Virus record (IMG/VR): IMGVR_UViG_3300005544_000001
Location: 14,392 to 78,391 of that record
Origin: a virus
Lineage: Duplodnaviria; Caudoviricetes
Reading direction: 5' to 3' (one strand)
Length of the DNA: 64,000 bases
Every line of letters starts with the position of its first letter. The stretch's first letter is position 1. A program made the position numbers and the translations under genes. A model generated the notes under the pieces. The model was not told where the DNA came from and did not search any database. It saw only the letters and a program-made list of their open reading frames with translations. This document shows positions 1,761 through 60,705 of this stretch, in pieces.

Positions 1761-2032
1761 AACGCCGTTCATTTTTCAGCCGGATTGCAGGGTTCGTCGC
1801 CGCTGTGGCGATTGCGCCAGAAATTGCGTTTCGGTCGAAGTTGCCACTTCCGGGTGCGGCGCATTTGCAGTTGGAATCCGTCCAAGTGGCATTTTGGACA
1901 CAGGACGCTCGCTATTCGAGATGCGTGGATCCTGAATACGAGAAACTTCTCCGTAATCTGGAGAGCCGACCAACATCAGCCCTTAACGTGCCGAACATGT
2001 TCGATTTCCTGAAAGAGCACACCAAGGCATGA
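1757..2032 (+). CDS. Small protein with twin-arginine (Tat-like) signal
   Basis: ATG at 1757 overlaps upstream stop; N-terminus MKRRSFFSRIAGFVAAVAIA. Confidence 0.6.
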   Translation: MKRRSFFSRIAGFVAAVAIAPEIAFRSKLPLPGAAHLQLESVQVAFWTQDARYSRCVDPEYEKLLRNLESRPTSALNVPNMFDFLKEHTKA

Positions 2033-4464
2033 AGTTCGACCAACTCGACAACCAGCCGTGCCTGCTCCCCCAGGTGAACGAGGAATCGTGTGAAAGCACG
2101 AGGCTACCGGTCCAGGAGGGGCGCCTCGAGCTGCGTCCCGAGGTTGCCGTCGTGGCAGTTCTGGGCACCGTACAATATCGAACCTTCCTGATCGCCAACG
2201 GCGTCGAACGCGAGGTCACATCCGGGCTCAGCTATCGCTCTGGCAGCACCGTAATCGCAGTCATCGGCGCCATCGGCGGCAACGCCACGGGCATCTCGGT
2301 CGGCATAGTCACGATCTCGGTCGAATGGCAGGGCCTCGAGGCGTTCGCCCAGCTTCAGGTCGTTGACTCCTGCGACAACATTTCGAACGGGCTGGAGATC
2401 GTCATCGACAACTCGGAGTCGATGAATCAGGCGTTTGGCGCGCCATACGGCACCAAGCTTGATTTCGCGAAGTTCCTCGCCAAACAGTTCGCCGGAGAGG
2501 TCGACGTGCGCAAGGACATCGTTGGGCTGACCACGTTCGCCGTGTCGGGCCAGGTTGTGGCGCCTTTGACGGCCGATAACATCGCCGTCGGGACCGCCAT
2601 CATGGGTGTCGGCTTCGTTCCGGAGCAGACAGACATCCATGCGGGGCTCGAAACGGCCATCGCGGAACTCGCCGCGGCGAACGTCGACCGCCGCGTTATC
2701 CTGCTGATCACGGACGGCCAGCATAACGACGACATCGAGCCGCTGCAGACAGCCCTCCAGTTCCGGTCCGGCGGCGGGGTTCTCATCGTCATTGGCCTGC
2801 GCGCCGGCCTGGAGGCGTTCATGCGCCTAGAGAAACTCGCCAACGGCGGTTTCTTCATCTCGGCCTACGACGGGCCCACCGCGGAGGACGCCAAACGTTA
2901 CGTGAGCGGGTTGAAAGGCTACCTGTGCGCTGGCAACTGTTGCCCGGAAGGTGACGTCATCGTTGGCCAGGGCAGGCTCGACTACGAGGATTGGCTCAAC
3001 TGGGATAACATCGGAAACGTCGACCTGATTGGGAACGGATTTTACGATCTTATCCCAGGGCACGGTCTATTCGTGGATCTCGTGGGAAGCTCGGCGCCAT
3101 GGCAGGGCGGGTTGATCAGCAAGAAATCGTTCACGTTCCAAAACGGCGTCAACTACAAGCTGAGTTACAAACTGGCCGGCAATCAGCGCGCGGACGCCAC
3201 GGGCTACTCGGTCAAGGTCAATGCCGGCAGCGTCGCGACCGCCACGCACGCGATGAACGATTGGCGCCAGGACTTTACGACCTACGACTTGAGTTTCGTG
3301 GGCGATGGCACTTCCGGCCAACTGATCTTCATCCAGGAAACGGTCTCGCCTGCGCCGGCGGCTCAAGCCTTCGGGGTTTTGCTTGATGACGTCACGCTCA
3401 TCAACGATGACACGGACGAAATTCTGTTCACCGAAAGTTTCGACAACGAGAATCTGACTTACGTGCCGCCCGCTTGCGGCATGGGCACAGTCTACGGACA
3501 GGGTTACGGTGGCGGTTACGCCTACGGGACGTGCTGCTACGGTTACGGGTGCCTGGCTGAACCGGTCAAACAGCAGAACCCGGATCCCATGCCGCCAACG
3601 GATCCCGAGACGGAGCCCGATCCGTTCTGGATCAGCACGCAGTCCTACACGGCAAGCTGCCCCGTTGGAACCACGGGCGCCGACGTGACACGCTCGGCGA
3701 GCTACAAGAGTTTCATCAGCGCGGCCGATGCCAACGCAAAAGCCCTGGCGCTGGCTCAGACCGCAGCCGAGGCGGCGCTGAACTGTGTGAGCCCGCCCGT
3801 CAACGGCGATCTCATCAACATGCACGCCATCCGCGGCAGGCATACGACAAAGATAGGCTTTGCCGCATTCGGAAAGACGTCCGGCGACGTCTGGAACGCA
3901 TGGAGCGCCTCCGATTACAACAACGATACCCTGTTGAAATCGGACGGGACCGCCTCCTTCGTCACCATCCGAAAGTGTGAAGTCGGCGATTTCACGCAAA
4001 CGGAACTCGGCGCGGTCAATTTCGATGTGTCGCTCGACCATCCGGACGCCATGTACAAGATGGGCCAGGCGTTCTATCGCAACGATTCAATCACGCCGAA
4101 GGACGAGGCGCTGTTCTTCGACGGATTACCCGAGGGCAATTATGAGGTCTACGTTTACGGCCACGGCGCTGACAACGCGCTGCAGGTCGGCCATTACCAG
4201 GTTCGCACCGGTAAACTCACAGGAGATCTGGCATCTGGATTCGTGCTCGATCCTTTCACCAACACCGTTTACCCAACGCTCGACACGTCGAACACGGACA
4301 GCTACCTCGACACCGCCTGGGCCGAAAACGTCCAGTTCGTGAAATACTCAGTCACGATCGGCGCAGGGCAGACCGGCATCTGCATCATTTCCGCCAGCGC
4401 ATCCGGCGTGGATCCCGGGCGAATCAGCGTGCTCATGGGCGTGCAGATTCACCGCTTGACATAA
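2029..4464 (+). CDS. Multidomain virion-associated protein: Ig-like, vWA, carbohydrate-binding-like and DUF5977-like domains
   Basis: 811 aa; MIDAS-like DNSES and LITDG; SYTASCP...SYKSFISAADANAKALALA resembles DUF5977. Confidence 0.7.
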   Translation: MKFDQLDNQPCLLPQVNEESCESTRLPVQEGRLELRPEVAVVAVLGTVQYRTFLIANGVEREVTSGLSYRSGSTVIAVIGAIGGNATGISVGIVTISVEWQGLEAFAQLQVVDSCDNISNGLEIVIDNSESMNQAFGAPYGTKLDFAKFLAKQFAGEVDVRKDIVGLTTFAVSGQVVAPLTADNIAVGTAIMGVGFVPEQTDIHAGLETAIAELAAANVDRRVILLITDGQHNDDIEPLQTALQFRSGGGVLIVIGLRAGLEAFMRLEKLANGGFFISAYDGPTAEDAKRYVSGLKGYLCAGNCCPEGDVIVGQGRLDYEDWLNWDNIGNVDLIGNGFYDLIPGHGLFVDLVGSSAPWQGGLISKKSFTFQNGVNYKLSYKLAGNQRADATGYSVKVNAGSVATATHAMNDWRQDFTTYDLSFVGDGTSGQLIFIQETVSPAPAAQAFGVLLDDVTLINDDTDEILFTESFDNENLTYVPPACGMGTVYGQGYGGGYAYGTCCYGYGCLAEPVKQQNPDPMPPTDPETEPDPFWISTQSYTASCPVGTTGADVTRSASYKSFISAADANAKALALAQTAAEAALNCVSPPVNGDLINMHAIRGRHTTKIGFAAFGKTSGDVWNAWSASDYNNDTLLKSDGTASFVTIRKCEVGDFTQTELGAVNFDVSLDHPDAMYKMGQAFYRNDSITPKDEALFFDGLPEGNYEVYVYGHGADNALQVGHYQVRTGKLTGDLASGFVLDPFTNTVYPTLDTSNTDSYLDTAWAENVQFVKYSVTIGAGQTGICIISASASGVDPGRISVLMGVQIHRLT
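4452..4461 (+). promoter_or_regulatory. Candidate -35 element (CCGCTTGACA) upstream of the Cas7-like locus
   Basis: First 10 nt of the 12-mer repeated at other promoters in the window; no clear -10 at 17 nt. Confidence 0.4.
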
Positions 4465-4610
4465 ACGGTTCAATCGGGTTTTCTACGGTCATGCGTTTAG
4501 AGCCGCAATGGTCCCTCCAAACACTTTGCACCCGCTGCCGTCTGGCGGCGATTTCAAATCAGCCGCGCTCTAACGTTCGGGAGTCGGGTGCTTTTCCAAA
4601 TGCGCAGAAC

Positions 4611-4630
4611 GGTTTGGTTTGGTATGGCAA
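4611..4630 (+). repeat. Four GGY-NN pentamers in the leader of the Cas7-like gene
   Basis: GGTTT GGTTT GGTAT GGCAA, ending 27 nt before the ATG at 4658. Confidence 0.75.
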
Positions 4631-4657
4631 GCCCTCTGGCGCATTACTCCAAAACAC

Positions 4658-5290
4658 ATGAAGACAGCAGAAAAAAAGCTCACTGCCATCGGCGGCGAGT
4701 CACCAACGAACGGCGCACAGCATGGGATCGAACTTCAAATTCCATTCCGATGCGAAGTGACGGTTGAAGGTGTTGCTCCAATTCTTTTCCACGCGTGGAA
4801 CGTGGAGAGCGTCGATTCAAAATCAAAAGCCAAAAAAGGCTCTGCCGAAAAGAAAAGTGACGACGTGGAAAGCTACGTTTACCGGAATGATGAAAAGGAG
4901 GTTTGCATTCCAGGCGAGTATTTACGAGGCGCGATCGTAAATGCTGCAAAATTCCAACAAGATCCTCGCAGCCCAAGGAAGTCGGCTGCTGATCTTTTCA
5001 AGGCCGCGATCGTCTCGCTGACGCCGCTCGCTTCCTTGGGGGCAAAGGATTGGGATTATTTGGACAAGAGAAGGGTCACAATCCAGCGAAACGCGATAAC
5101 ACGCTGTCGCCCTGCGATGCGCGAGGGCTGGTCTGCAAAATTTATCCTCATGGTGAATTTGCCGGAGTACGTAGGTCAGGAACTTTTGAACGCTACCATC
5201 CAGCAGGCCGGAAAGCTGATTGGTCTTGGTGACTTTCGTCCGAGTTTCGGGCGATTCATCGTCACACGGTTTGTCGTGTTGAACGATTAA
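4658..5290 (+). CDS. Stand-alone Cas7/RAMP-like protein (putative Vipr-type effector)
   Basis: 210 aa from ATG 4658. N-terminal VTVEGVAPILFH strand, IPGEYLRGAIVNAA (compare RAMP IPGSSLKG) and C-terminal Gly-rich loop AGKLIGLGDFRPSFGRF; directly followed by the pentamer array. Confidence 0.8.
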   Translation: MKTAEKKLTAIGGESPTNGAQHGIELQIPFRCEVTVEGVAPILFHAWNVESVDSKSKAKKGSAEKKSDDVESYVYRNDEKEVCIPGEYLRGAIVNAAKFQQDPRSPRKSAADLFKAAIVSLTPLASLGAKDWDYLDKRRVTIQRNAITRCRPAMREGWSAKFILMVNLPEYVGQELLNATIQQAGKLIGLGDFRPSFGRFIVTRFVVLND

Positions 5291-5293
5291 TTC

Positions 5294-5757
5294 GGTGTCG
5301 GTGTGGTTGGGCAAGGCTCGGCGTGTTGAGGCTTGGTGCGGTGGCATCGAGATGTGGCCATGCAAGGTGTGGTTCGGTCAGCCGTGGCGCGGTCAGGTTC
5401 GGTCAGGCGCGGTTTGGTCCACTACGGTTTGGCCGGGTGGGGTGAGGCGCGTTCAGGTAAGCATGGGCGAGCTACGGTACGGTCTGGTTCGGGACTCGAA
5501 AGAGTCCGGTCGGGTGAGGTCGGGCGGGGTATGGCAGGGTGAGCTATGGCACGGTGGGTTTGGGTAGGATTGAGTCGGGTAAGGCAAGGCGGGCATGGGT
5601 ATGGTACGGTTCGGGCGCGAAAGCGCCGGTATGGTTTGCTATGGCGGGGCCGGGCGTGGCCAGGTGAGGTTCGGCGGGGTGTGGTAATCCCAGGCACGGT
5701 CGGACGTGGTAAGCTTCCGCGCGGTGCGGTTCGCAATGGCAAGCTATGGTTTGGTGG
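5294..5757 (+). ncRNA. GGY-NN pentamer repeat array (putative guide-RNA array)
   Basis: Tracts 5300-5339, 5356-5490, 5508-5612 and 5628-5757 hold 82 in-phase pentamers; 63 begin GGY (manual count). NN is variable; tracts are separated by hairpins. Confidence 0.85.
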
Positions 5758-5793
5758 CGGGGCGTTGCCTCTTGACAAAGGCTTCGCCCCGCC
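5756..5793 (+). terminator. Hairpin closing the array (3' boundary); loop contains TTGACA
   Basis: GGCGGGGCG (5756-5764) pairs with CGCCCCGCC (5785-5793), with an inner GCCT/AGGC stem. No long U-tract. TTGACA at 5772-5777 may serve the next gene. Confidence 0.55.
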
Positions 5794-5812
5794 TTCAGCA
5801 TCAAGATTCCAG

Positions 5813-6559
5813 ATGACAGCAACTTTTAAACACAGCGGCGACCTGGGCGATATTATTTACAGCCTTCCGACAGTTAGGCATTTTGGTGGTGGGGATTTTT
5901 GGATCGCGGCTTCAAACTTCACGAGGGTTGAACTGACGCCAAACAACTGGCATGGCATTGACCGTTTGTTAGCCCGCCAACCGTATATAAGAAGCGTTCG
6001 CTCATATCGAATGGGAGAGTACGCGGTTTTCAATTTGGACTCGTTTCGCGGCCCGCTGAATCTTGCGCTTCGAAAACATGAGCAGATGGACAAGAGCCTC
6101 TGCGATTGGGTTTTGGAGACCCACAACGTTCCCCTGACCGCGAAGGAGACCGCATGGCTCACCGTCGAGCCGAAGACCGTTGCTCCGGTCGTCATTAACC
6201 GCACGGGCGCAGGACGGACGCGCAACGCCTGCTATCACAATTTCAAATTTCCGTGGCACAAAGTCTGGAAGAAATACGGACGTGACGCGGTGTTCATCGG
6301 GACGTGGGCAGAGTACGAGATGTTTTGCGGATCGTGCGGCGAGGTGCCGTATCACGAGACGAAGGATCTGCTCGAGGCCGCGCAGGTGATTGCCGGCGCC
6401 AAACTGTTCGTAGGGAACCAGAGCGTCTGCCACGCGATTGCCCAGGGCTTGTTTCAGCGTGTCCTGCTCGAAGTCTGGGTTGAGGGCGCCAATTCGACGT
6501 TCCTGCGTGAAGGCGTGACGAATGGTTTCGATGAGAAGGTGGAGTTGCCTGAAATATGA
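5813..6559 (+). CDS. Glycosyltransferase, GT9 (heptosyltransferase)-like
   Basis: True start ATG 5813 (MTATFKHSGDLGDII); C-terminal FVGNQSVCHAIAQGL typical of GT9-like GT-B enzymes. Confidence 0.7.
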   Translation: MTATFKHSGDLGDIIYSLPTVRHFGGGDFWIAASNFTRVELTPNNWHGIDRLLARQPYIRSVRSYRMGEYAVFNLDSFRGPLNLALRKHEQMDKSLCDWVLETHNVPLTAKETAWLTVEPKTVAPVVINRTGAGRTRNACYHNFKFPWHKVWKKYGRDAVFIGTWAEYEMFCGSCGEVPYHETKDLLEAAQVIAGAKLFVGNQSVCHAIAQGLFQRVLLEVWVEGANSTFLREGVTNGFDEKVELPEI

Positions 6560-6972
6560 AGGAGAAAACCGTTCTCGTTACTGGTTGCTTCGACGTGCTC
6601 CACCGCGGGCATATTGAGCTTTTGTATATCGCCGCCGAACACGGAAAAGTCGTTGTGGGCATCAATGACGACGAGAGTGTTCAAAAACTCAAGGGACCGA
6701 AAAGGCCCGTGAATAATGAGGTGGACAGGCTGTTTCTGATAGAAGCACTTGGCAGCGTGACCTACGGGTTCATCATTTTCGACGTGAAAGTGGACAAGGC
6801 GATCATGGACATCAAGCCGGACATTTGGATGAAAGGCGGCGATTACACGATGGAAACTCTGAACAAGGACGAGGTTGAGGCTGCGCGGAATGTTGGAGCG
6901 GAGATCATCATTATTCCAACGTGCAAGGGCTATTCGACAACCGAGACACTCAAGAAACTGGAGGCAGAATGA
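6556..6972 (+). CDS. Cytidylyltransferase-family nucleotidyltransferase (RfaE/HldE domain II-like)
   Basis: GCFDVLHRGH (HIGH motif), KGPKRP, KGGDY, GYSTT. Confidence 0.85.
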   Translation: MKEKTVLVTGCFDVLHRGHIELLYIAAEHGKVVVGINDDESVQKLKGPKRPVNNEVDRLFLIEALGSVTYGFIIFDVKVDKAIMDIKPDIWMKGGDYTMETLNKDEVEAARNVGAEIIIIPTCKGYSTTETLKKLEAE

Positions 6973-7478
6973 GCGAAACAGCCAAACACCGCGATCAGGT
7001 CGCGGAATTCACTGTGGGCAACGGCGTGGACCTTGGATCATCCGGGGACGGGATCGTGCCATGGGCAATCCAGGTTGACCTGCCGACCGACGAATATCTC
7101 CGATACAACCCAAAGCGCCCGCAGGATGCGATACACTGGCGCGGCAGCGCGCTTCACCTGCCGTTTCAGGATCGGGTGCTCGACTTCGTCCATTCGTCGC
7201 ATCTCCTCGAGGACTTCGAAGACTGGGGCCCGATACTCAAGGAATGGGACCGGGTGCTGAAGATCGGCGGTTACATGATCATCGCCGTGCCGGACCATGC
7301 TCGGTTCCGCGCGGCCGTCGCCCGCGGGCAGGGGGACAATCTCAATCACAAGCACGAATCGCACGTCGGAGAGCTGCCGAAGTATCTGCACACTTACAAA
7401 ACACTCATCGACAGGTTTGTGAGCAGTGATCCAAACGAGTATTCGATCCTCTATGTCGGCGTCAAAAATCCTGTATGA
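6969..7478 (+). CDS. Class I SAM-dependent methyltransferase
   Basis: ATG 6969; VDLGSSG, DFVHSSHLLED, EWDRVLKIGG. Confidence 0.8.
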   Translation: MSETAKHRDQVAEFTVGNGVDLGSSGDGIVPWAIQVDLPTDEYLRYNPKRPQDAIHWRGSALHLPFQDRVLDFVHSSHLLEDFEDWGPILKEWDRVLKIGGYMIIAVPDHARFRAAVARGQGDNLNHKHESHVGELPKYLHTYKTLIDRFVSSDPNEYSILYVGVKNPV

Positions 7479-8197
7479 AAGCACAAGTTATCACCGTCTC
7501 TAGCCACGATCCCGTCCAGTCCTATTATCACTTCGGCGCCTTCAAAAAGAGCCTGGCGAGGTTCGGCGTGGAGCCGACCATCCTCGGCCCGGGCGAGCCG
7601 TGGCGAGGGCTGATGACCAAACCGCGGCTTCTGCAGAAGTTTTTGAGCGAGAGCCGGCATAAAAGCGACAACATTATCGTGACCGATGCCTGGGACATCA
7701 TTTTCACCGCGCATCCCGACGAGGTGTGGGCGGCGAAGGAATTCGATGCGCCGGACGCCGTGATGTTCAACGCCGAGATGGGTTGCTTCCCGCGGGCTGA
7801 TCTGGCTGACAGGTTCCCTGACCCGGGCACCCCTTACCGATTCCCGAACTCAGGGTTCATGGCCGGCACGGCGAGCCAAATCCTTGCCATCCTCGACAGC
7901 ATGAACCTGAACGCCATTCGAGATGACACGCAGGAGCCCGACGGCTCATGGTTCAACCCGAACGATCAGGAGTATTACACGCTGGCGTTCCTCCAGCAGC
8001 CGGTGAAGATGGTTCTGGATACGCACGCGCGCGTTTGTCAGTCATTCTCTGGAAGTGCGCTCAGCGATTACGTCCTAGTCGATGAGGGTCGCGTCACAAA
8101 CAAGCGTACGGGTTGCAAACCACTCGTTTGGCATTTCAACGGGAACTCGAAGAACGACATTTTGCCTGAACTCCTGAAGCACAACCACCTTGCATGA
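7475..8197 (+). CDS. GT-A glycosyltransferase (PLOD GT-domain-like)
   Basis: VTDAWD, FNAEMGCFP, FPNSGFMAG, DQ, HFNGNSK. Confidence 0.75.
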   Translation: MKAQVITVSSHDPVQSYYHFGAFKKSLARFGVEPTILGPGEPWRGLMTKPRLLQKFLSESRHKSDNIIVTDAWDIIFTAHPDEVWAAKEFDAPDAVMFNAEMGCFPRADLADRFPDPGTPYRFPNSGFMAGTASQILAILDSMNLNAIRDDTQEPDGSWFNPNDQEYYTLAFLQQPVKMVLDTHARVCQSFSGSALSDYVLVDEGRVTNKRTGCKPLVWHFNGNSKNDILPELLKHNHLA

Positions 8198-8733
8198 ACC
8201 TCCTCACGCTCACTGGTAAAATCAACGTCCAGGGCTTCCTCCACGAAGCCGAAATGGAAAAGCTCGTCGAGCTGGGCATCAACAAGGACGTGCTCGAGGT
8301 GGGCAGCTTCATGGGCTTGTCGGCCTATTGCTTTGCCATCGTCGCCAAGAGCGTCATGTGCGTGGACACATTTTCCGCAGCTACAGACGGCCAACGGCAG
8401 GAAAGCACCCTTCAGACGCTCGCCGCCTTCGATGAAGCTGTTGCGAGGTTTTCCAACGTGAAACGGTTTGTTGGCAAATCTGAGCGCGCTGCCAGCCACT
8501 ACGGCGTCGCCGGCCAGTTCGATCTCGTCTTCCTCGACGCCATGCACACCTACGAGGACGTAAAGTATGACATCGAACGCTGGTGGCCACGCGTGCGCAA
8601 CGGCGGGATAATGGCGTTCCACGATTACGGCCACGATAATTATCCAGGCGTAAAACAAGCGGTCGATGAAAAGTTCGGGGAGGCGCCGGACGGCACTACG
8701 ATTGTCACCTTGAGGTGGATCGAGAAGAAGTGA
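8194..8733 (+). CDS. SAM-dependent methyltransferase (Methyltransf_24-like)
   Basis: LEVGSFMGLS, DLVFLDAMHTYEDV, GGIMAFHDY. Confidence 0.85.
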   Translation: MNLLTLTGKINVQGFLHEAEMEKLVELGINKDVLEVGSFMGLSAYCFAIVAKSVMCVDTFSAATDGQRQESTLQTLAAFDEAVARFSNVKRFVGKSERAASHYGVAGQFDLVFLDAMHTYEDVKYDIERWWPRVRNGGIMAFHDYGHDNYPGVKQAVDEKFGEAPDGTTIVTLRWIEKK

Positions 8734-8745
8734 CATGCTCGCCGG

Positions 8746-10248
8746 GTGAAACCGATTTGTTTGATTATTCCGCCGAGTCCATTCCTCGTTGACGAGCGCG
8801 TATTTCCAAGCCTCGGAATCCTGAAAGTTGCTGCCTGTTTGGAGGAAGCCGGAATCGCAGTGGAGATGGTGGACCTGTCCGGCGTTGAGAATCACGAGGA
8901 AGCCATCATCGCGCACGTCAAGGATTCAACCGCTACGCAATTCGGAATCACAGCCACTTCGCCCCAGTTGCCCGCCGCGCTCGCCATCTGCCGTGCAATC
9001 CGATCGATCCGCAGTGACGCCAAAATAATCCTCGGAGGACCGCACATTACCCTCATCTGCGCCGCGCTGAAGCTGGAGAGAAAAAACAACTCACTCGGGC
9101 GCGCCGAGCGAGCCTTCACTGTGCTCTCAAAGGAATTCGATGTCCTCGTGGCTGGAGATGGCGAGGATGCTATTTTGGTAGCTGTTGAAAACAATTCCCC
9201 AGGCCTGATAGATGCAGATGATCCGAAGGGTTCTCTGTTCATGACGAACGAGCGATTAAACACAACCCCGTGGCCGGCGAGACACCTGTTGGACATGGAT
9301 AGCTATGTGTTCAAAATTGAGGGCGTAAAGGCAACATCCGCCATTTTCCAAAACGGCTGTCCGTTCCCGTGCAATTTCTGCTCAGGAAGATTGAGCCCAA
9401 TGCTCCGAAGGATACGGACAAGAACCACCGAAAACGTCATCTCGGAAATGGAATTACTTTATCGCAAGTATTCCATCAAGGCAGTGATGTGCTTTGACGA
9501 TGAGCTCAACGTCAACCCAAAGATGATCGAACTGATGGACGCCCTTACGGCCCTGCAAGGGCGACTCGGCGTGGAATTTAAAATGCGGGGATTCATCAAG
9601 TCTCAGCTTTTTACGGATGCACAAGCTCAAGCCATGAACCGCGCCGGGTTCAAGTGGATTTTGGTCGGATTCGAGGCGGGCTCGGATCGCATCCTGGAGA
9701 ACATAAACAAGCGCGCAACGAAGGCCGAGAACACACGCTGCATGGAGATCGCCCGCCGAAACGGACTCAAAGTGAAAGCGTTAATGTCTCTGGGCCACGC
9801 CGGCGAAACGGAGCAAACCATATCGGAAACAAAGGACTGGCTGCTTGAGGTTAAACCCGACGACTTCGACGCCACGGTGATCACAACTTACCCTGGCAGT
9901 CCTTACTGGGACGAGGCCGTTCCGCATTCAACTCTCCCAAACGTCTGGACGTTCACGGCCCCGAAGTCCGGGGACAGGCTTCACTCAATGGATGTGGACT
10001 TCACCAAAGACGTCCTGTTCTATAAGGGGGCCATTGGGGAATACAAATCATTCGTGTTTACCGACCATCTTGGGGCGGACGATCTCGTCAGGCTGCGTGA
10101 CAATCTTGAGCGCGAAATCCGGGCCACGCTGAATATCCCATACAACGCCGGTGCCCCTGGGATTCGATTTGAAGCCAGCATGGGAATGACAAAACTTCCT
10201 TCGAACATCTTGAAAACCTCAAAGCTCGAGCATGAACCTAATTGCTGA
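8746..10248 (+). CDS. Cobalamin-binding radical SAM protein
   Basis: N-terminal B12-binding-like region (PSLGILKVAA...GGPH), CPFPCNFC cluster motif, FDDE, GFEAGS. Confidence 0.9.
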   Translation: MKPICLIIPPSPFLVDERVFPSLGILKVAACLEEAGIAVEMVDLSGVENHEEAIIAHVKDSTATQFGITATSPQLPAALAICRAIRSIRSDAKIILGGPHITLICAALKLERKNNSLGRAERAFTVLSKEFDVLVAGDGEDAILVAVENNSPGLIDADDPKGSLFMTNERLNTTPWPARHLLDMDSYVFKIEGVKATSAIFQNGCPFPCNFCSGRLSPMLRRIRTRTTENVISEMELLYRKYSIKAVMCFDDELNVNPKMIELMDALTALQGRLGVEFKMRGFIKSQLFTDAQAQAMNRAGFKWILVGFEAGSDRILENINKRATKAENTRCMEIARRNGLKVKALMSLGHAGETEQTISETKDWLLEVKPDDFDATVITTYPGSPYWDEAVPHSTLPNVWTFTAPKSGDRLHSMDVDFTKDVLFYKGAIGEYKSFVFTDHLGADDLVRLRDNLEREIRATLNIPYNAGAPGIRFEASMGMTKLPSNILKTSKLEHEPNC

Positions 10249-10789
10249 AACACAGTCAGTCCGCACCAAGAACGTAATCCAAAAACGCAGCCTGATCCCC
10301 ACTCCAACGCCTGTTCCTGGGGCACGCTGGATCCCATTGACCAAGGGCTTGTTCGCGCTGGTTGACGAGAAGGACTATGAGGCAGCGAACCGCTTTGCGT
10401 GGACGGCAGACATAAATCCAAGGACCGCTTACGCGTACTGCAAAAGAGGTGGTGAGATTTTCTGGCTTCACAGGATCTTGATGAGTGCCCCGGAAAACAT
10501 GCAGGTAGATCACAGGGACGGCAACGGGCTAGACTGTCGGCGGGATAATATGCGGGTATGCAGTCTTAAAAATAACCACCGCAATATCAGGAAAACCATT
10601 GTTAAAACCTCTTCAAAGTTCAAGGGCGTATCTTGGGACAAAACACGGGAAAAGTGGTCCGCCAAGATCAAGTTCAATGGAAAGACAATAAATCTCGGCA
10701 GGTTCGAAGACGAGGACGAGGCTGGGAAAGCATACGATGAATCAGCCGGGAGACTCTTTGGGGAATTTGCACTGCTGAACTTTCCATGA
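10232..10789 (+). CDS. HNH-AP2 homing endonuclease
   Basis: LHRILM...VDHRDGNGLDCRRDNMR followed by AP2-like SKFKGVSW...INLGRF...AYD. Confidence 0.9.
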   Translation: MNLIAETQSVRTKNVIQKRSLIPTPTPVPGARWIPLTKGLFALVDEKDYEAANRFAWTADINPRTAYAYCKRGGEIFWLHRILMSAPENMQVDHRDGNGLDCRRDNMRVCSLKNNHRNIRKTIVKTSSKFKGVSWDKTREKWSAKIKFNGKTINLGRFEDEDEAGKAYDESAGRLFGEFALLNFP

Positions 10790-11778
10790 AAATCGGCATC
10801 TTTCTATCGAGTCTCGGCGGTAGTCCGCTGCAGGCCGGGCTGGAGCGTGGGTTTGTCCAGTTGGGGCATGAATTGGTGGACGGCGGGAAGCCGTGCGATC
10901 TGCTCGTTGTTTTCAATCAAACAGCTCATGATCCGTCGTATTGCTACCCCGGCTTTCCGGACCATACCGGGCCGATGGCGTTCATCGACTGCGCGGAGTA
11001 TGGGTATTTCAGGCGACTGCCAGGCATCGTTGGCCATTATTGGAACGCATTCGCCGCGGGCTCAATGGTTCACGACACGAAGAACGTCGTGCAGCAGACA
11101 CGGTTGAAGAACTGGCTCGAGGGAAGGAGCTTCCCTTACTTCATTCGCGAGTTCAGCAAGCACGTCGTTTTCCCGATCAACTATCACCCGATCGATTACC
11201 CGCTTTATTACCACAGCGAATGCCACCAGAAGCCGGACCGCGAGGAGTATTTGAAGCGCGAACTCGACCTGTTCGTGAGCTGGGGGGCGAGTCATCCCTG
11301 GCGGATGCAGATCACGCAGGCGCTGCGGGATTGCCACACGCGCTGCGAAATCTTGGTCCTCGAGGAGAACGGGACGCCGCGGATGCGGCAGCGTGATTTC
11401 TTCCAGCGCACGCGCGCGGCGAAGTGCTCGGTGTCGTTCGACGGTTACGGGTCGTCGTCCTTCCGGCTGCACGAGGTGCTTGTGCGATGCCTGCTGTTGG
11501 CCGGACCCATGAGCATTGACCGTTACGCCCCGCTGGTGGACGGGGTGCATTTCATGGAATACGCGGTCGATGCGGTCGGCGAGGATTTCGTTGGGACGAA
11601 CGTGTGCAAGGTGCTTCGGCAGGCGCTGGCGGACCCGGAGGGAAGCTTTCGGATGTACGACGCGGGTTACAGACATTGCATGGAGCACTACACCGAAAAG
11701 GCGACCGCCGAATACGTCCTGCGCACCGTCGAGGCGCACGACTGGACGAAGGTAACGCCGCTTGACAATCCTGCGTGA
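10786..11778 (+). CDS. Putative glycosyltransferase (CgeB-like GT-B)
   Basis: C-terminal AKCSVSFDGYG...RLHEVL...LVDGVHF...EHYT pattern; lies in the GT cluster. Confidence 0.55.
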   Translation: MKIGIFLSSLGGSPLQAGLERGFVQLGHELVDGGKPCDLLVVFNQTAHDPSYCYPGFPDHTGPMAFIDCAEYGYFRRLPGIVGHYWNAFAAGSMVHDTKNVVQQTRLKNWLEGRSFPYFIREFSKHVVFPINYHPIDYPLYYHSECHQKPDREEYLKRELDLFVSWGASHPWRMQITQALRDCHTRCEILVLEENGTPRMRQRDFFQRTRAAKCSVSFDGYGSSSFRLHEVLVRCLLLAGPMSIDRYAPLVDGVHFMEYAVDAVGEDFVGTNVCKVLRQALADPEGSFRMYDAGYRHCMEHYTEKATAEYVLRTVEAHDWTKVTPLDNPA

Positions 11779-12076
11779 GCGCGGCAGCGTCACAGCCATG
11801 AACGACGCGACGGACGAAGCTCCGATTCCATCCCTCCCGATTCTTTCCGAAGAAGAAACGTTGAAGCAACCTCGTCAATACCTGAGCCGCTATTGCCCGT
11901 CGTGTGGATTCAAGGGTTGTTTCCGCGTCCCTGACGGTCTTTATCTCATAGCGGCACAACTCCACTGTGAGAGATGCGGACGATCCACTCGCGCCAAACT
12001 TAAATGGGACACGGGTTTGCTTCGCAGGATCTGGTGGTGGATCCGATGCCGCCATACCCGAATCAATTTAGGATGA
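11762..12076 (+). CDS. Small Zn-ribbon protein
   Basis: CPSC...CERC pairs; start uncertain (11762 or ATG 11799). Confidence 0.45.
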   Translation: MTILRERGSVTAMNDATDEAPIPSLPILSEEETLKQPRQYLSRYCPSCGFKGCFRVPDGLYLIAAQLHCERCGRSTRAKLKWDTGLLRRIWWWIRCRHTRINLG

Positions 12077-13125
12077 AACGCCTCACGTTGGTTGCCAGCA
12101 TCGACAACGCGACCGGCTACGGTCTGCACGCGATCCAGATCGTGCGCGACATCGAGCGGTTGACAGGCGCGCACGTTGCCATCCGGCCGATCCAGCAGAA
12201 GCAGATGTTTGGATCGAACATCCCGACCGACATTCGGCAGCGGTTCGTCAACGGCCCGCAGCCCGAAGAGTGGGAGCTTGTCCTGTCGCCACCATACTTC
12301 CGACCGACGCCCGGGAAGAAAACCGCCTACTTTTCGATGTGGGAAGCGACACGGCTCCCTCCCGGCGGCGCCGCGGTCCTGAACCTCGCCGAGATCGTCA
12401 TCGTGCCGACGTCCTGGGGCGCCTCGTGCTTCTCGGCGTCAGGCGTGGATCGTACGATGAGGATCGTGCCGCTGGGCATCGACGACAAGGTTTTCCACTT
12501 TCGCGCGCAGAGCTTGGCCAGCGAGCCTGCGAAGGCTGGAGTGCGCGCCGTGTTCGGGACTGCCGGCCGCATGTCCCACGGCGGGATCCGAAAGGGCATC
12601 AACGAGGTAATCGACCTGTTCCAGCGTGCGTTCCCGACGGAGGGCGACGTCCTGTTGCGCGTGAAAGTTCACCCTGACTGCCCGGTGACGCGACTGTCCG
12701 ACCCGCGCATCGAGATCAAAGCAGCGCACCTGCCCGACGAGCAGCTCGCCGACTGGTTCTCGGCGCTGACGTGCTTCGTATCGGGCGCCCGCGGCGAGGG
12801 CTGGGGGCTGTTCCAACAGCAGGCGATGGCCACCGGGCGCCCGGTCGTCGCCGCGCGCTTTGCCGGCCTGGCCGACTTCCTGACGCCGGATAACGGTTTC
12901 TGTGTGCCGTTCGTCCTCGGGGCGGCAGAACAGGCGTACGCGGGCTGCGGGCACTGGGCATGGCCGTCTGACCAAGGGTTCATCGAGGCGATGCGCACGA
13001 TCTATCGCGAGCCGCACCTCGCCGCGGCCAAAGGCGCCCAGGCGTCGAAGGACGTCGCGCACCTGACGTGGGAGAACTCGAACCTACGGTTGATTGATGT
13101 ATTACAAGAAGTGGGGGCACTATGA
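12073..13125 (+). CDS. GT4-family glycosyltransferase
   Basis: ATG 12073; RKGINE, ARGEGWGLFQQQAMATGRPVVA (Gln where GT4 usually has Glu). Confidence 0.85.
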   Translation: MKRLTLVASIDNATGYGLHAIQIVRDIERLTGAHVAIRPIQQKQMFGSNIPTDIRQRFVNGPQPEEWELVLSPPYFRPTPGKKTAYFSMWEATRLPPGGAAVLNLAEIVIVPTSWGASCFSASGVDRTMRIVPLGIDDKVFHFRAQSLASEPAKAGVRAVFGTAGRMSHGGIRKGINEVIDLFQRAFPTEGDVLLRVKVHPDCPVTRLSDPRIEIKAAHLPDEQLADWFSALTCFVSGARGEGWGLFQQQAMATGRPVVAARFAGLADFLTPDNGFCVPFVLGAAEQAYAGCGHWAWPSDQGFIEAMRTIYREPHLAAAKGAQASKDVAHLTWENSNLRLIDVLQEVGAL

Positions 13126-60426: not shown

Positions 60427-60705
60427 TTGGGGAGGTTTTGTGGAGTTAGCTGGGTTTGAGGGGTTGGGCTGCAGCGGGCGTGGAGCGGAGGGTGTGGAGT
60501 TGGAGGAGGGTGAACTGATCGAGGGAGGTGAGGTTTGGGCGCTTCGCTATGGCCGATTACGGCAGTGGTGCGCCTCGCCTATGGCTCGCCTGTGTAGATC
60601 CCTCTTGTATGTGTATATGTATAGGTTTACGGGTCGATTACTTTTTGCGATTTAGTAATCCTTTGAGGTTGACCGGTTGGGCGAGGTTTGGGAAGATTTT
60701 GGCCG

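What the first reader, a model, noticed from the sequence alone, without database searches (positions are those of the whole stretch)
4658..5793. Lone Cas7/RAMP-like gene plus GGY-NN pentamer array: candidate phage RNA-guided system
Seen: a 210-aa gene with RAMP-like motifs (VEGVAPILFH, IPGEYLRG, Gly-rich GLGDFRPSFGRF) ends at 5290. From 5294, a ~465-nt strictly 5-periodic array follows; 63 of 82 in-phase pentamers begin GGY and the last two bases vary. There are no other cas genes and no repeat-spacer CRISPR. Established: Cas7/RAMP proteins polymerise along guide RNA with a fixed nucleotide period. Inference: GGY is the constant protein-binding part and NN carries targeting information. This matches what I recall of the recently reported VIPR systems (recalled, not verified), so the family may be known while this locus is not.
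Basis: partly seen in the sequence, partly recalled or inferred. Interest (0 to 1): 0.95.

Follow-up and report, generated by a model that had tools for sequence, protein, structure and literature searches.

The report
Phage VIPR locus: Vipr plus guide array
This uncultured 78-kb phage carries a real example of the VIPR system described in 2026: a small Cas7-like protein gene followed by a guide-RNA array of five-base repeats. The class is already known, and the only new points are some local RNA structures; what the guides target is still unknown.

Summary

**Protein.** The 210-aa protein (4658-5290) matches the solved SUSP1 Vipr protein (PDB 36pp) by sequence. E is 3.5e-9 for the protein alone and 1.2e-17 with a family profile. 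It keeps the published GGY-contact residues. Its model (pLDDT 93) matches only Cas7/Csm3/Cmr4 RAMPs (Z up to 12).

**Array.**
- The array (5291-5754) has 81 five-base units, of which 59 are YNNGG.
- The two NN positions are at maximal entropy.
- It is not strictly periodic. It forms four tracts with three register shifts, two conserved GAAA hairpins and a terminator-like end hairpin.

**Relatives.** Nearly all of about 65 related loci carry such arrays beside the gene. None shares a neighbouring accessory gene.

**Gapped code.** Guides of relatives hit rival vipr genes under the published one-base-skip code: 66 hits against 1 in the control.

**Not found.** I found no target for this phage's own guides.

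**Clade-specific extras.** The inter-guide hairpins and a 66-nt structured leader both show compensatory base changes.

The scan has noted VIPR-like loci on other DNA many times (438 notes in at least 308 genomes). Verdict: a new member of a known kind.

The parts
4513..4599 (+). Conserved structured leader RNA. The core is 4528-4593, with an outer helix GCACCCG/CGGGTGC that encloses a nested stem and hairpin.
   Evidence: RNAalifold on 12 loci gives 20 pairs, 14 with compensatory changes. Covariance model R1 finds one copy per locus on the vipr strand, upstream of the gene, in 17 loci, four of which are independent of the model's input; a fifth, L014, duplicates L013. Single-sequence fold is -32 kcal/mol, z = -3.45. 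No Rfam match.
4603..4632 (+). Short upstream GG-pentamer tract (about 4-5 units), a truncated counterpart of the longer upstream tracts in relatives.
   Evidence: In alignment A4, relatives carry 10-16 units here and the window has a deletion. Upstream arrays are common in the wider family.
4658..5290 (+). vipr gene, encoding a 210-aa minimal RAMP (Cas7-like) protein.
   Evidence: PDB 36pp 'SUSP1 Vipr protein' matches at E 3.5e-9 alone and 1.2e-17 with a profile. AF2 pLDDT is 93. Top structural matches are Csm3/Cmr4/Cas7. Also phrog_4652.
5291..5341 (+). Tract T1. A TTCGG unit starts directly after the stop codon, then a 1-nt slip, then 9 units (5297-5341).
5342..5362 (+). Non-repeat junction with a register shift. 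It lies within a stretch (5332-5372) that folds locally into two small hairpins not of the conserved type.
5363..5492 (+). Tract T2. It has 26 units, 19 of them canonical, and ends in the constant TTCGG unit.
5492..5507 (+). Inter-guide hairpin 1: GGACTC-GAAA-GAGTCC, flanked by GGTTCG and GG.
5510..5614 (+). Tract T3. It has 21 units and ends in the constant TTCGG unit.
5614..5627 (+). Inter-guide hairpin 2: GGCGC-GAAA-GCGCC, followed by GG-TATGG.
5630..5754 (+). Tract T4. It has 25 units, including a run of 9 canonical units (5640-5684).
5751..5798 (+). Strong terminal hairpin with a 9-bp GC stem and an inner stem. It is the likely end of the vipr-array transcript and the cap of the last guide.
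   Evidence: Fold is -32.2 kcal/mol, z = -4.7. The six close relatives whose ends were read (L001, L002, L003, L010, L019, L039) end their arrays in a long hairpin, three of them with a T-run. The simple terminator scan did not call it, because it lacks a T-run.

Best explanation
This is a VIPR (Viral Interference Programmable Repeat) locus on a 78-kb phage. It has no accessory gene.

**Proposed mechanism**
- *Transcription (inferred).* vipr and the array directly downstream are made as one transcript. It starts near the structured leader and ends at the 5751-5798 hairpin.
- *Processing (inferred).* The transcript is cut into guide RNAs (vrRNAs). Each is a tract of YNNGG units ending in a constant TTCGG unit plus a GNRA-type hairpin. 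That hairpin plays the part of the invariant 3' tail of SUSP1 vrRNAs.
- *Assembly (shown for SUSP1; inferred here from conserved contact residues).* Vipr protomers polymerise one per five-base unit. They sequester each GGY and present the NN pairs.
- *Target recognition (shown for SUSP1; supported here for relatives' guides).* The filament reads double-stranded DNA with one target base skipped per unit, so the target reads NNxNNx.
- *Outcome (inferred).* With no nuclease or helicase partner nearby, the outcome is most likely binding and transcriptional silencing, not cleavage.
- *Targets (not identified).* By analogy, and from what relatives' guides hit, they are most likely genes of competing phages or other mobile elements.
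For: **Protein**
- Direct homology to the solved SUSP1 Vipr, nearly full length with the profile.
- In those printed alignments, the published RNA-contact residues H17, E71, R138, D177, W178 and R179 (10.64898/2026.04.26.720927) align with window H45, E87, R151, D192, F193 and R194.
- H45, R151, D192 and R194 are invariant in the 15-sequence alignment A3. R151, D192 and R194 are at least 90% conserved across the 68 diverse homologues of A1.
- High-confidence model with an RRM core, a G-loop (189-199), a thumb hairpin (134-154) and a small helical insert. Only RAMPs match at the top.

**Array**
- Arrays lie beside the gene in nearly all relatives, whereas gene interiors give 0-6 chained GG.

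**Hairpins**
- 27 of 28 instances chosen by their flanks alone are fully paired.
- 36 cells changed on both sides against 9.6 in shuffles, 0 of 500 shuffles as high.
- Hairpins are spaced 71-142 nt in relatives. This fits the roughly 100-nt vrRNAs of the paper.

**Gapped code in this clade**
- With 10-unit guides from 51 sources, the xNN rule gives 66 hits at 18/20 or better against 1 for reversed guides. Skip 0 gives 0 and skip 2 gives 1.
- Most hits are on rival vipr genes, mainly the G-loop-coding region. There, by my decoding of the guide strings, NN falls on codon positions 1-2.
- No guide hit its own locus.

**Context**
- G000 is a virus record.
- No CRISPR array and no cas genes.
Against: - No expression or RNA-binding data.
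- No target was found for this locus's own guides. This covers the phage itself, 368 kb of related loci, five exact seed scans of IMG/VR and one 12-unit guide in 401 genomes of the phylum of a Pirellulales MAG.
- 27% of units are degenerate. Tracts of 21-26 units are longer than the 9-16 repeats reported for SUSP1-type vrRNAs, so guide boundaries are uncertain.
- The upstream tract is truncated.
- No promoter was recognised.
Confidence: 0.92

Rival explanations
1. A decaying or inactive VIPR remnant. The protein is intact, but the array has drifted and no longer yields working guides.
For: 22 of 81 units are non-canonical and the register shifts three times. The upstream tract is cut down to 4-5 units compared with relatives. 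No target was found.
Against: - The paper itself notes frequent internal degeneracy in vrRNAs.
- The G at position 4 is kept in 77 of 81 units.
- Both conserved hairpins and the leader are intact and score at the top of the family.
- The protein keeps all contact residues.
- The target searches had low sensitivity: exact seeds only, and the host is unknown.
Confidence: 0.06
2. A working VIPR whose guides are aimed at the host, for example defence or regulatory genes, and not at rival mobile elements.
For: Other follow-ups in this scan read VIPR guides as spelling motifs of defence genes (unchecked notes). No match was found in IMG/VR viral contigs.
Against: - One 12-unit guide with up to 3 mismatches found nothing in 401 genomes of the phylum of a Pirellulales MAG, although the host is unknown.
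- In this clade, the guides that do have recognisable targets hit rival vipr genes.
- The published natural targets of phage-borne VIPRs are satellites and prophages.
Confidence: 0.25
3. The pentamer region is unrelated to the protein. It could be coding sequence, a G-quadruplex or recombination tract, or a simple low-complexity repeat.
For: ORFs of 90 and 337 aa can be drawn through it. The region is G-rich.
Against: - A 5-nt period cannot keep a reading frame.
- The downstream gene's likely start, by my reading, is the ATG at 5813, beyond the array.
- The array travels with vipr into unrelated genomic contexts where no other gene is shared.
- The repeat has exactly the published YNNGG form.
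Confidence: 0.02

Closest known systems
VIPR systems (Vipr + vrRNA). Reference: Escherichia phage SUSP1, type II. Sources: bioRxiv 10.64898/2026.04.26.720920, 10.64898/2026.04.26.720927 and 10.64898/2026.10.15.759431; PDB 36pp.
   Same: - Homologous minimal RAMP protein with conserved GGY-contact residues.
- YNNGG tandem units with hypervariable NN.
- Arrays next to the gene, in a phage.
- No CRISPR array or cas genes.
- The 1-nt-skip code is supported in this clade.
- Guides of relatives aimed at other VIPR loci, as the paper reports.
   Different: - No vap accessory gene nearby or shared among relatives.
- Guides are separated by a short GNRA-type hairpin with constant TTCGG and TATGG flanking units, not by the roughly 40-nt pseudoknotted tail of SUSP1.
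- Tracts are longer (21-26 units).
- The array abuts the stop codon and ends in one terminal hairpin.
- A 66-nt structured leader lies upstream.
- The paper's type (I-VII) could not be assigned, because its figures and tables are not held.
VIPR array variants named in the paper: staggered arrays, hammerhead-interspersed arrays (types I and V) and single-vrRNA loci.
   Same: Several guides in one array, with structured RNA between them. Stand-alone vipr loci exist in the family.
   Different: No hammerhead or other Rfam ribozyme at E up to 10. The hairpins are 14-16 nt, too small for a ribozyme.
Class 1 CRISPR backbone subunits: Cas7, Csm3, Cmr4 and type VII Cas7.
   Same: Same RAMP fold (Z 10-12, TM about 0.5) and the same logic of one protomer per fixed RNA period.
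   Different: - 5-nt period instead of 6-nt.
- No repeat-spacer array, no Cas5, Cas6, large subunit or adaptation genes.
- About 10-17% sequence identity.
- The target is read with gaps.

Membership tests
VIPR | The protein is homologous to an experimentally characterised Vipr. | tested here: met
   PDB 36pp_D 'SUSP1 Vipr protein': E 3.5e-9 for the single sequence (residues 74-202). With the profile of 68 homologues, E 1.2e-17 (profile 33-206 against chain 5-189).
VIPR | Minimal RAMP fold: a single RRM core, a glycine-rich loop and a thumb. | tested here: met
   AF2 pLDDT 93.1, pTM 0.85. Predicted beta-hairpin at 134-154, G-loop at 189-199 and no second RRM. Foldseek and VIA-align top hits are all Csm3, Cmr4 or Cas7.
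VIPR | The residues that grip G1, G2 and Y3 of each repeat are conserved (SUSP1 H17, R138, D177, W178, R179, E71). | tested here: met
   They align with H45, R151, D192, F193 (aromatic kept), R194 and E87 in the alignments. H45, R151, D192 and R194 are invariant in A3.
VIPR | Adjacent tandem YNNGG units (at least 4; typically 9-16 per vrRNA) with conserved GGY and hypervariable NN. | tested here: met
   81 units, 59 of them YNNGG. Entropy is 2.0 bits at the NN positions, 0.36 and 0.95 at the two G positions and 1.2 at Y. Chained GG is 52 against 19.9 +/- 6.1 simulated.
VIPR | The variable tract is capped by an invariant structured 3' tail. | tested here: inconclusive
   A conserved hairpin with compensatory changes and a constant preceding unit exists. 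Whether it is the 3' tail of the mature RNA needs RNA ends. It differs in form from the SUSP1 pseudoknot.
VIPR | Non-CRISPR context: no repeat-spacer array and no other cas genes. | tested here: met
VIPR | Viral or proviral location (typical, not obligatory). | tested here: met
   G000 is a 78,391-bp virus record. Relatives lie on IMG/VR contigs.
VIPR | vap accessory gene (present in most types). | tested here: not met
   No neighbouring protein is shared among more than 50 related loci. The neighbours here are a VWA protein and glycan-synthesis enzymes. The paper also reports stand-alone vipr genes, so this does not exclude membership.
VIPR | Guides recognise DNA by the 1-nt-skip (xNN) code. 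| tested here: inconclusive
   Met for guides of relatives: 66 hits against 1 control, specific to skip = 1. No target was found for this window's own guides.
VIPR | vrRNAs are expressed and co-purify with Vipr. | not testable with these tools
This needs wet-lab work.
VIPR | Assignment to one of the paper's types I-VII. | not testable with these tools
   The type tree, locus diagrams and data tables are not held. 'Type I-like' is only my inference, from seven types against six vap genes.
Class 1 CRISPR-Cas | A CRISPR repeat-spacer array plus a multi-subunit effector (Cas5, large subunit) or adaptation genes. | tested here: not met
   No such array in 64 kb. No cas family hits in the neighbours.

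The most novel reading that the evidence does not exclude
This Vipr subclade (about 67% identity or more to the window protein) may be a distinct VIPR architecture with its own biogenesis.
- The protein and its guides would share one transcript.
- Guides would be punctuated by small GNRA hairpins with constant flanking units.
- A conserved 66-nt structured leader would act as a processing, filament-nucleation or autoregulatory element.
- Rival guides aimed at the vipr G-loop-coding region would drive swapping of vipr alleles between otherwise near-identical phages.
Probability: 0.3. Interest if true: 0.5.

Novelty: new member of a known kind. Interest (0 to 1): 0.3.

Why it matters
**Extension of the family.** The locus places VIPR in a soil or freshwater type of uncultured phage. 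Its relatives come from soil, peat and groundwater metagenomes and from Planctomycetota and other MAGs.

**Size of the family.** In the databases searched here, this protein has 7433 related 90%-identity clusters and 1532 representatives at 50% identity.

**Independent support for the code.** The metagenome data back the published one-base-skip rule. They also show vipr genes themselves as targets of rival guides.

**Concrete RNA elements to test.** The hairpin punctuation and the structured leader give experimenters defined elements for studying guide biogenesis in vap-less systems. This could help in building minimal programmable DNA binders.

**Limit.** The locus does not change the picture of the class.

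Tried and rejected
**Family and RNA libraries**
- Pfam, NCBIfam and PADLOC have no model for the protein. Only phrog_4652, of unknown function, matches.
- Rfam at E up to 10 finds no ribozyme or known RNA in 4400-6000, so I rejected hammerhead-interspersed architecture.

**Target searches for this array**
- Self-genome: best 16/20, the same as random guides.
- 368 kb of related loci plus the phage: real and control distributions are the same.
- Five exact xNN seeds in IMG/VR gave two single hits, on a 69-75% GC contig (L055) and a 30% GC contig (L078). Neither extends beyond the seed, and the number is about what chance predicts for 18 fixed bases. I rejected both as targets.
- One 12-unit guide with up to 3 mismatches found nothing in 401 genomes of the phylum of a Pirellulales MAG or in five MAGs that carry relatives.
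- Decoding the guides to peptides by eye gave no motif I could name.

**Weak leads not pursued**
- Three 18/20 hits of foreign guides on this phage (genome positions 4082, 58689 and 68853) do not extend and are near chance level.

**Accessory gene**
- The vap search found no conserved neighbour.

**Tools and scans that failed**
I therefore could not examine the near-identical contigs of this phage or any expression data.
- Genome contigs with the single protein found nothing.
- Relatives cannot be drawn for a virus record.

Full report
**What is there**

- An ORF runs from ATG 4658 to TAA 5290 (210 aa) on the + strand.
- A G-rich tract with a five-base rhythm starts directly after the stop codon.
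- Parsed by register, it has four tracts:
  - T1, 5291-5341;
  - T2, 5363-5492;
  - T3, 5510-5614;
  - T4, 5630-5754.
- Together they hold 81 units. 59 are YNNGG and 63 end in GG.
- The positional entropies are 1.2, 1.97, 2.0, 0.36 and 0.95 bits. Both N positions are therefore as variable as they can be.
- The rhythm is well above chance. 52 chained GG pairs compare with 19.9 +/- 6.1 in Markov simulations, with a maximum of 46 in 2000. This region has the strongest period-5 signal in the 64-kb window.
- It is the only strong array in the whole 78,391-bp genome.
There are three register shifts and about 27% degenerate units, mostly GG changed to GC.

**The protein**

- Pfam, NCBIfam and PADLOC give nothing. 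PHROGs gives phrog_4652, of unknown function.
- Against PDB sequences the only real hit is 36pp 'SUSP1 Vipr protein'. E is 3.5e-9 for the single sequence. With a profile of 68 diverse homologues E is 1.2e-17 and the match is nearly full length.
- The structure paper names the residues that hold the repeat:
  - H17 and D177 for G1;
  - R138 and W178 for G2;
  - R179, E71 and M72 for the pyrimidine.
- In the printed alignments these fall on H45, D192, R151, F193, R194, E87 and Y88 of the window protein.
- H45, R151, D192 and R194 are invariant in the 15-sequence alignment.
- The AlphaFold model is confident (pLDDT 93.1, pTM 0.85).
- Foldseek's top matches are all Csm3 or type VII Cas7 (probability 1.0, TM about 0.5).
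- An independent all-against-all structural search gives Cmr4, Csm3 and Cas7 at Z 10-12. Only RAMPs fill the top 30 rows.

**Is VIPR real and what defines it**

Three 2026 preprints describe it.
- *Components:* a minimal RAMP protein, Vipr, and vrRNAs of 9-16 YNNGG repeats followed by a conserved structured 3' tail.
- *Targeting:* the NN pairs read double-stranded DNA with one target base skipped per repeat.
- *Function:* transcriptional silencing of competing phages, satellites and prophages.
- *Variation:* seven types and six vap accessory genes. Arrays may be staggered, interspersed with hammerheads, or single.

**Relatives**

- The family is very large: 7433 clusters at 90% identity and 1532 representatives at 50% identity with E up to 0.001.
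- I fetched 9 viral, 45 metagenomic and 22 genome-bin loci.
- Nearly all that have enough flanking sequence carry period-5 GG arrays directly downstream, upstream or both. Chained GG is 10-64 per 300 nt, against 0-6 inside the gene.
- Three near-identical marine loci (L029-L031) have none.
- Apart from Vipr itself, no neighbouring protein is shared across different loci. The gene plus array therefore moves as a self-contained cassette without a vap.
- Genome-bin relatives are mostly Planctomycetota, with Nitrospira and others. This is only a weak hint at the host.

**Clade-specific RNA structure: the hairpins**

- In relatives with about 67% identity or more, arrays are punctuated by a conserved element. 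It reads GGTTCG, then a hairpin closed by GG...CC with a tetraloop (mostly GAAA), then GG and usually TATGG.
- When instances are picked by the flanks alone, 27 of 28 have a fully paired stem (3.07 inner pairs against 0.52 when shuffled).
- On the alignment, three stem positions carry four pair types each. 36 cells are changed on both sides, against 9.6 in shuffles (0 of 500 as high), and sliding the partner destroys the signal.
- Copies are 71-142 nt apart.
- The window has two, at 5492-5507 and 5614-5627.
- The unit before the hairpin is constant (TTCGG), and the unit after it varies more. I therefore infer that the hairpin is the 3' cap of the preceding guide, as in SUSP1. This needs RNA ends to confirm.
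- The six close relatives whose ends were read end their arrays in a long hairpin, three of them with a T-run. The window's is at 5751-5798 (-32 kcal/mol, z = -4.7).
- Because the array abuts the stop codon, this suggests one vipr-array transcript.

**Clade-specific RNA structure: the leader**

- Upstream of vipr there is a second conserved structure at 4528-4593. An invariant GCAC/GTGC helix is extended by covarying pairs and encloses a nested stem and hairpin.
- 14 of 20 predicted pairs show compensatory changes.
- A covariance model finds exactly one copy per locus, on the gene's strand and upstream of vipr, in 17 loci. Four of these are independent of the model's input; L014 duplicates L013.
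- Rfam has no match.
- A short GG-pentamer tract follows the leader. It has 10-16 units in relatives but only 4-5 in the window.
- Its role is unknown. Candidates are a processing site, a nucleation site or an autoregulatory site.

**The gapped code, tested on independent data**

- I took every 10-unit guide with at least 8 GG units from 51 sources (1113 guides). I searched the phage plus all loci on both strands.
- With one skipped base there are 66 hits at 18/20 or better, against 1 for reversed guides. With no skip there are 0, and with two skipped bases there is 1.
- With three skipped bases, the 43 hits are most likely arrays of near-identical loci matching each other; I did not inspect them individually.
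- Most skip-1 hits come from guides in two loci (L036, L051) that match the G-loop-coding stretch of many rival vipr genes on the antisense strand. By my decoding of the guide strings, the NN pairs sit on codon positions 1-2 and the skipped base on the wobble position.
- No guide hits its own locus.
- This agrees with the paper's statements on wobble positions and on VIPRs that target other VIPRs.

**Targets of this array**

None were found. The searches are listed under Tried and rejected. They were insensitive, because collection scans accept exact seeds only and the host is unknown. Absence therefore means little.

**A related observation**

- A 1.7-kb metagenome contig (L011) is about 97% identical to the window through the upstream gene, the leader and the first ~40 nt of vipr.
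- Identity then drops to 63-82% through most of vipr, recovering to about 90% near its 3' end.
- The vipr allele has therefore been exchanged, or has diverged fast, in an otherwise near-identical phage.
- Escape from rival guides that read vipr is one possible cause. This is speculation.

**Verdict**

- This is a genuine VIPR locus and a new member of a published class.
- It is vap-less, has hairpin-punctuated long tracts and has a structured leader.
- The scan has already noted VIPR-like loci many times on other DNA (438 notes in at least 308 genomes).
- Expression, RNA ends, targets and the paper's type assignment remain untested.

Noticed in passing
window 4513-4599: A 66-nt structured RNA element upstream of vipr. 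It has an invariant GCAC/GTGC helix and many compensatory pairs, and it occurs once per locus in 17 related loci. It has no Rfam match and its role is unknown.
   Followed up: yes
L011:1-1686 against window 3680-5300: A metagenome contig is about 97% identical through the upstream VWA gene, the leader and the first ~40 nt of vipr. Identity then falls to 63-82% through most of vipr, recovering near its 3' end. This points to allele exchange or fast divergence of the vipr cassette.
   Followed up: partly
L036:1512 and L051:887-902, hitting about 20 other loci: Guides in two related arrays spell the G-loop-coding region (roughly D-F-R-P-T-Y-G-R-F) of rival vipr genes under the 1-nt-skip code. The window's own G-loop (DFRPSFGRF) would differ from that target at about 4 of 20 read positions.
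   Followed up: partly
window 2029-4464: An 811-aa protein directly upstream has a VWA domain, a weak choice-of-anchor C match and DUF5977. It is not conserved next to vipr in other loci.
   Followed up: no
window 5813-13125: The array is followed by a run of sugar-activating, glycosyltransferase, methyltransferase and B12-radical-SAM genes, an unusual glycan-modification cluster for a phage.
   Followed up: no
window 60442-60491: A second, weak G-rich stretch scores 7 of 10 in-phase GG. It lacks the Y and the regular YNNGG form, so it is probably chance or coding.
   Followed up: partly
L029, L030, L031: Three near-identical marine relatives (55% identity) show no GG-pentamer array within 300 nt on either side of vipr. 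They may use one of the alternative repeat forms mentioned in the paper.
   Followed up: no
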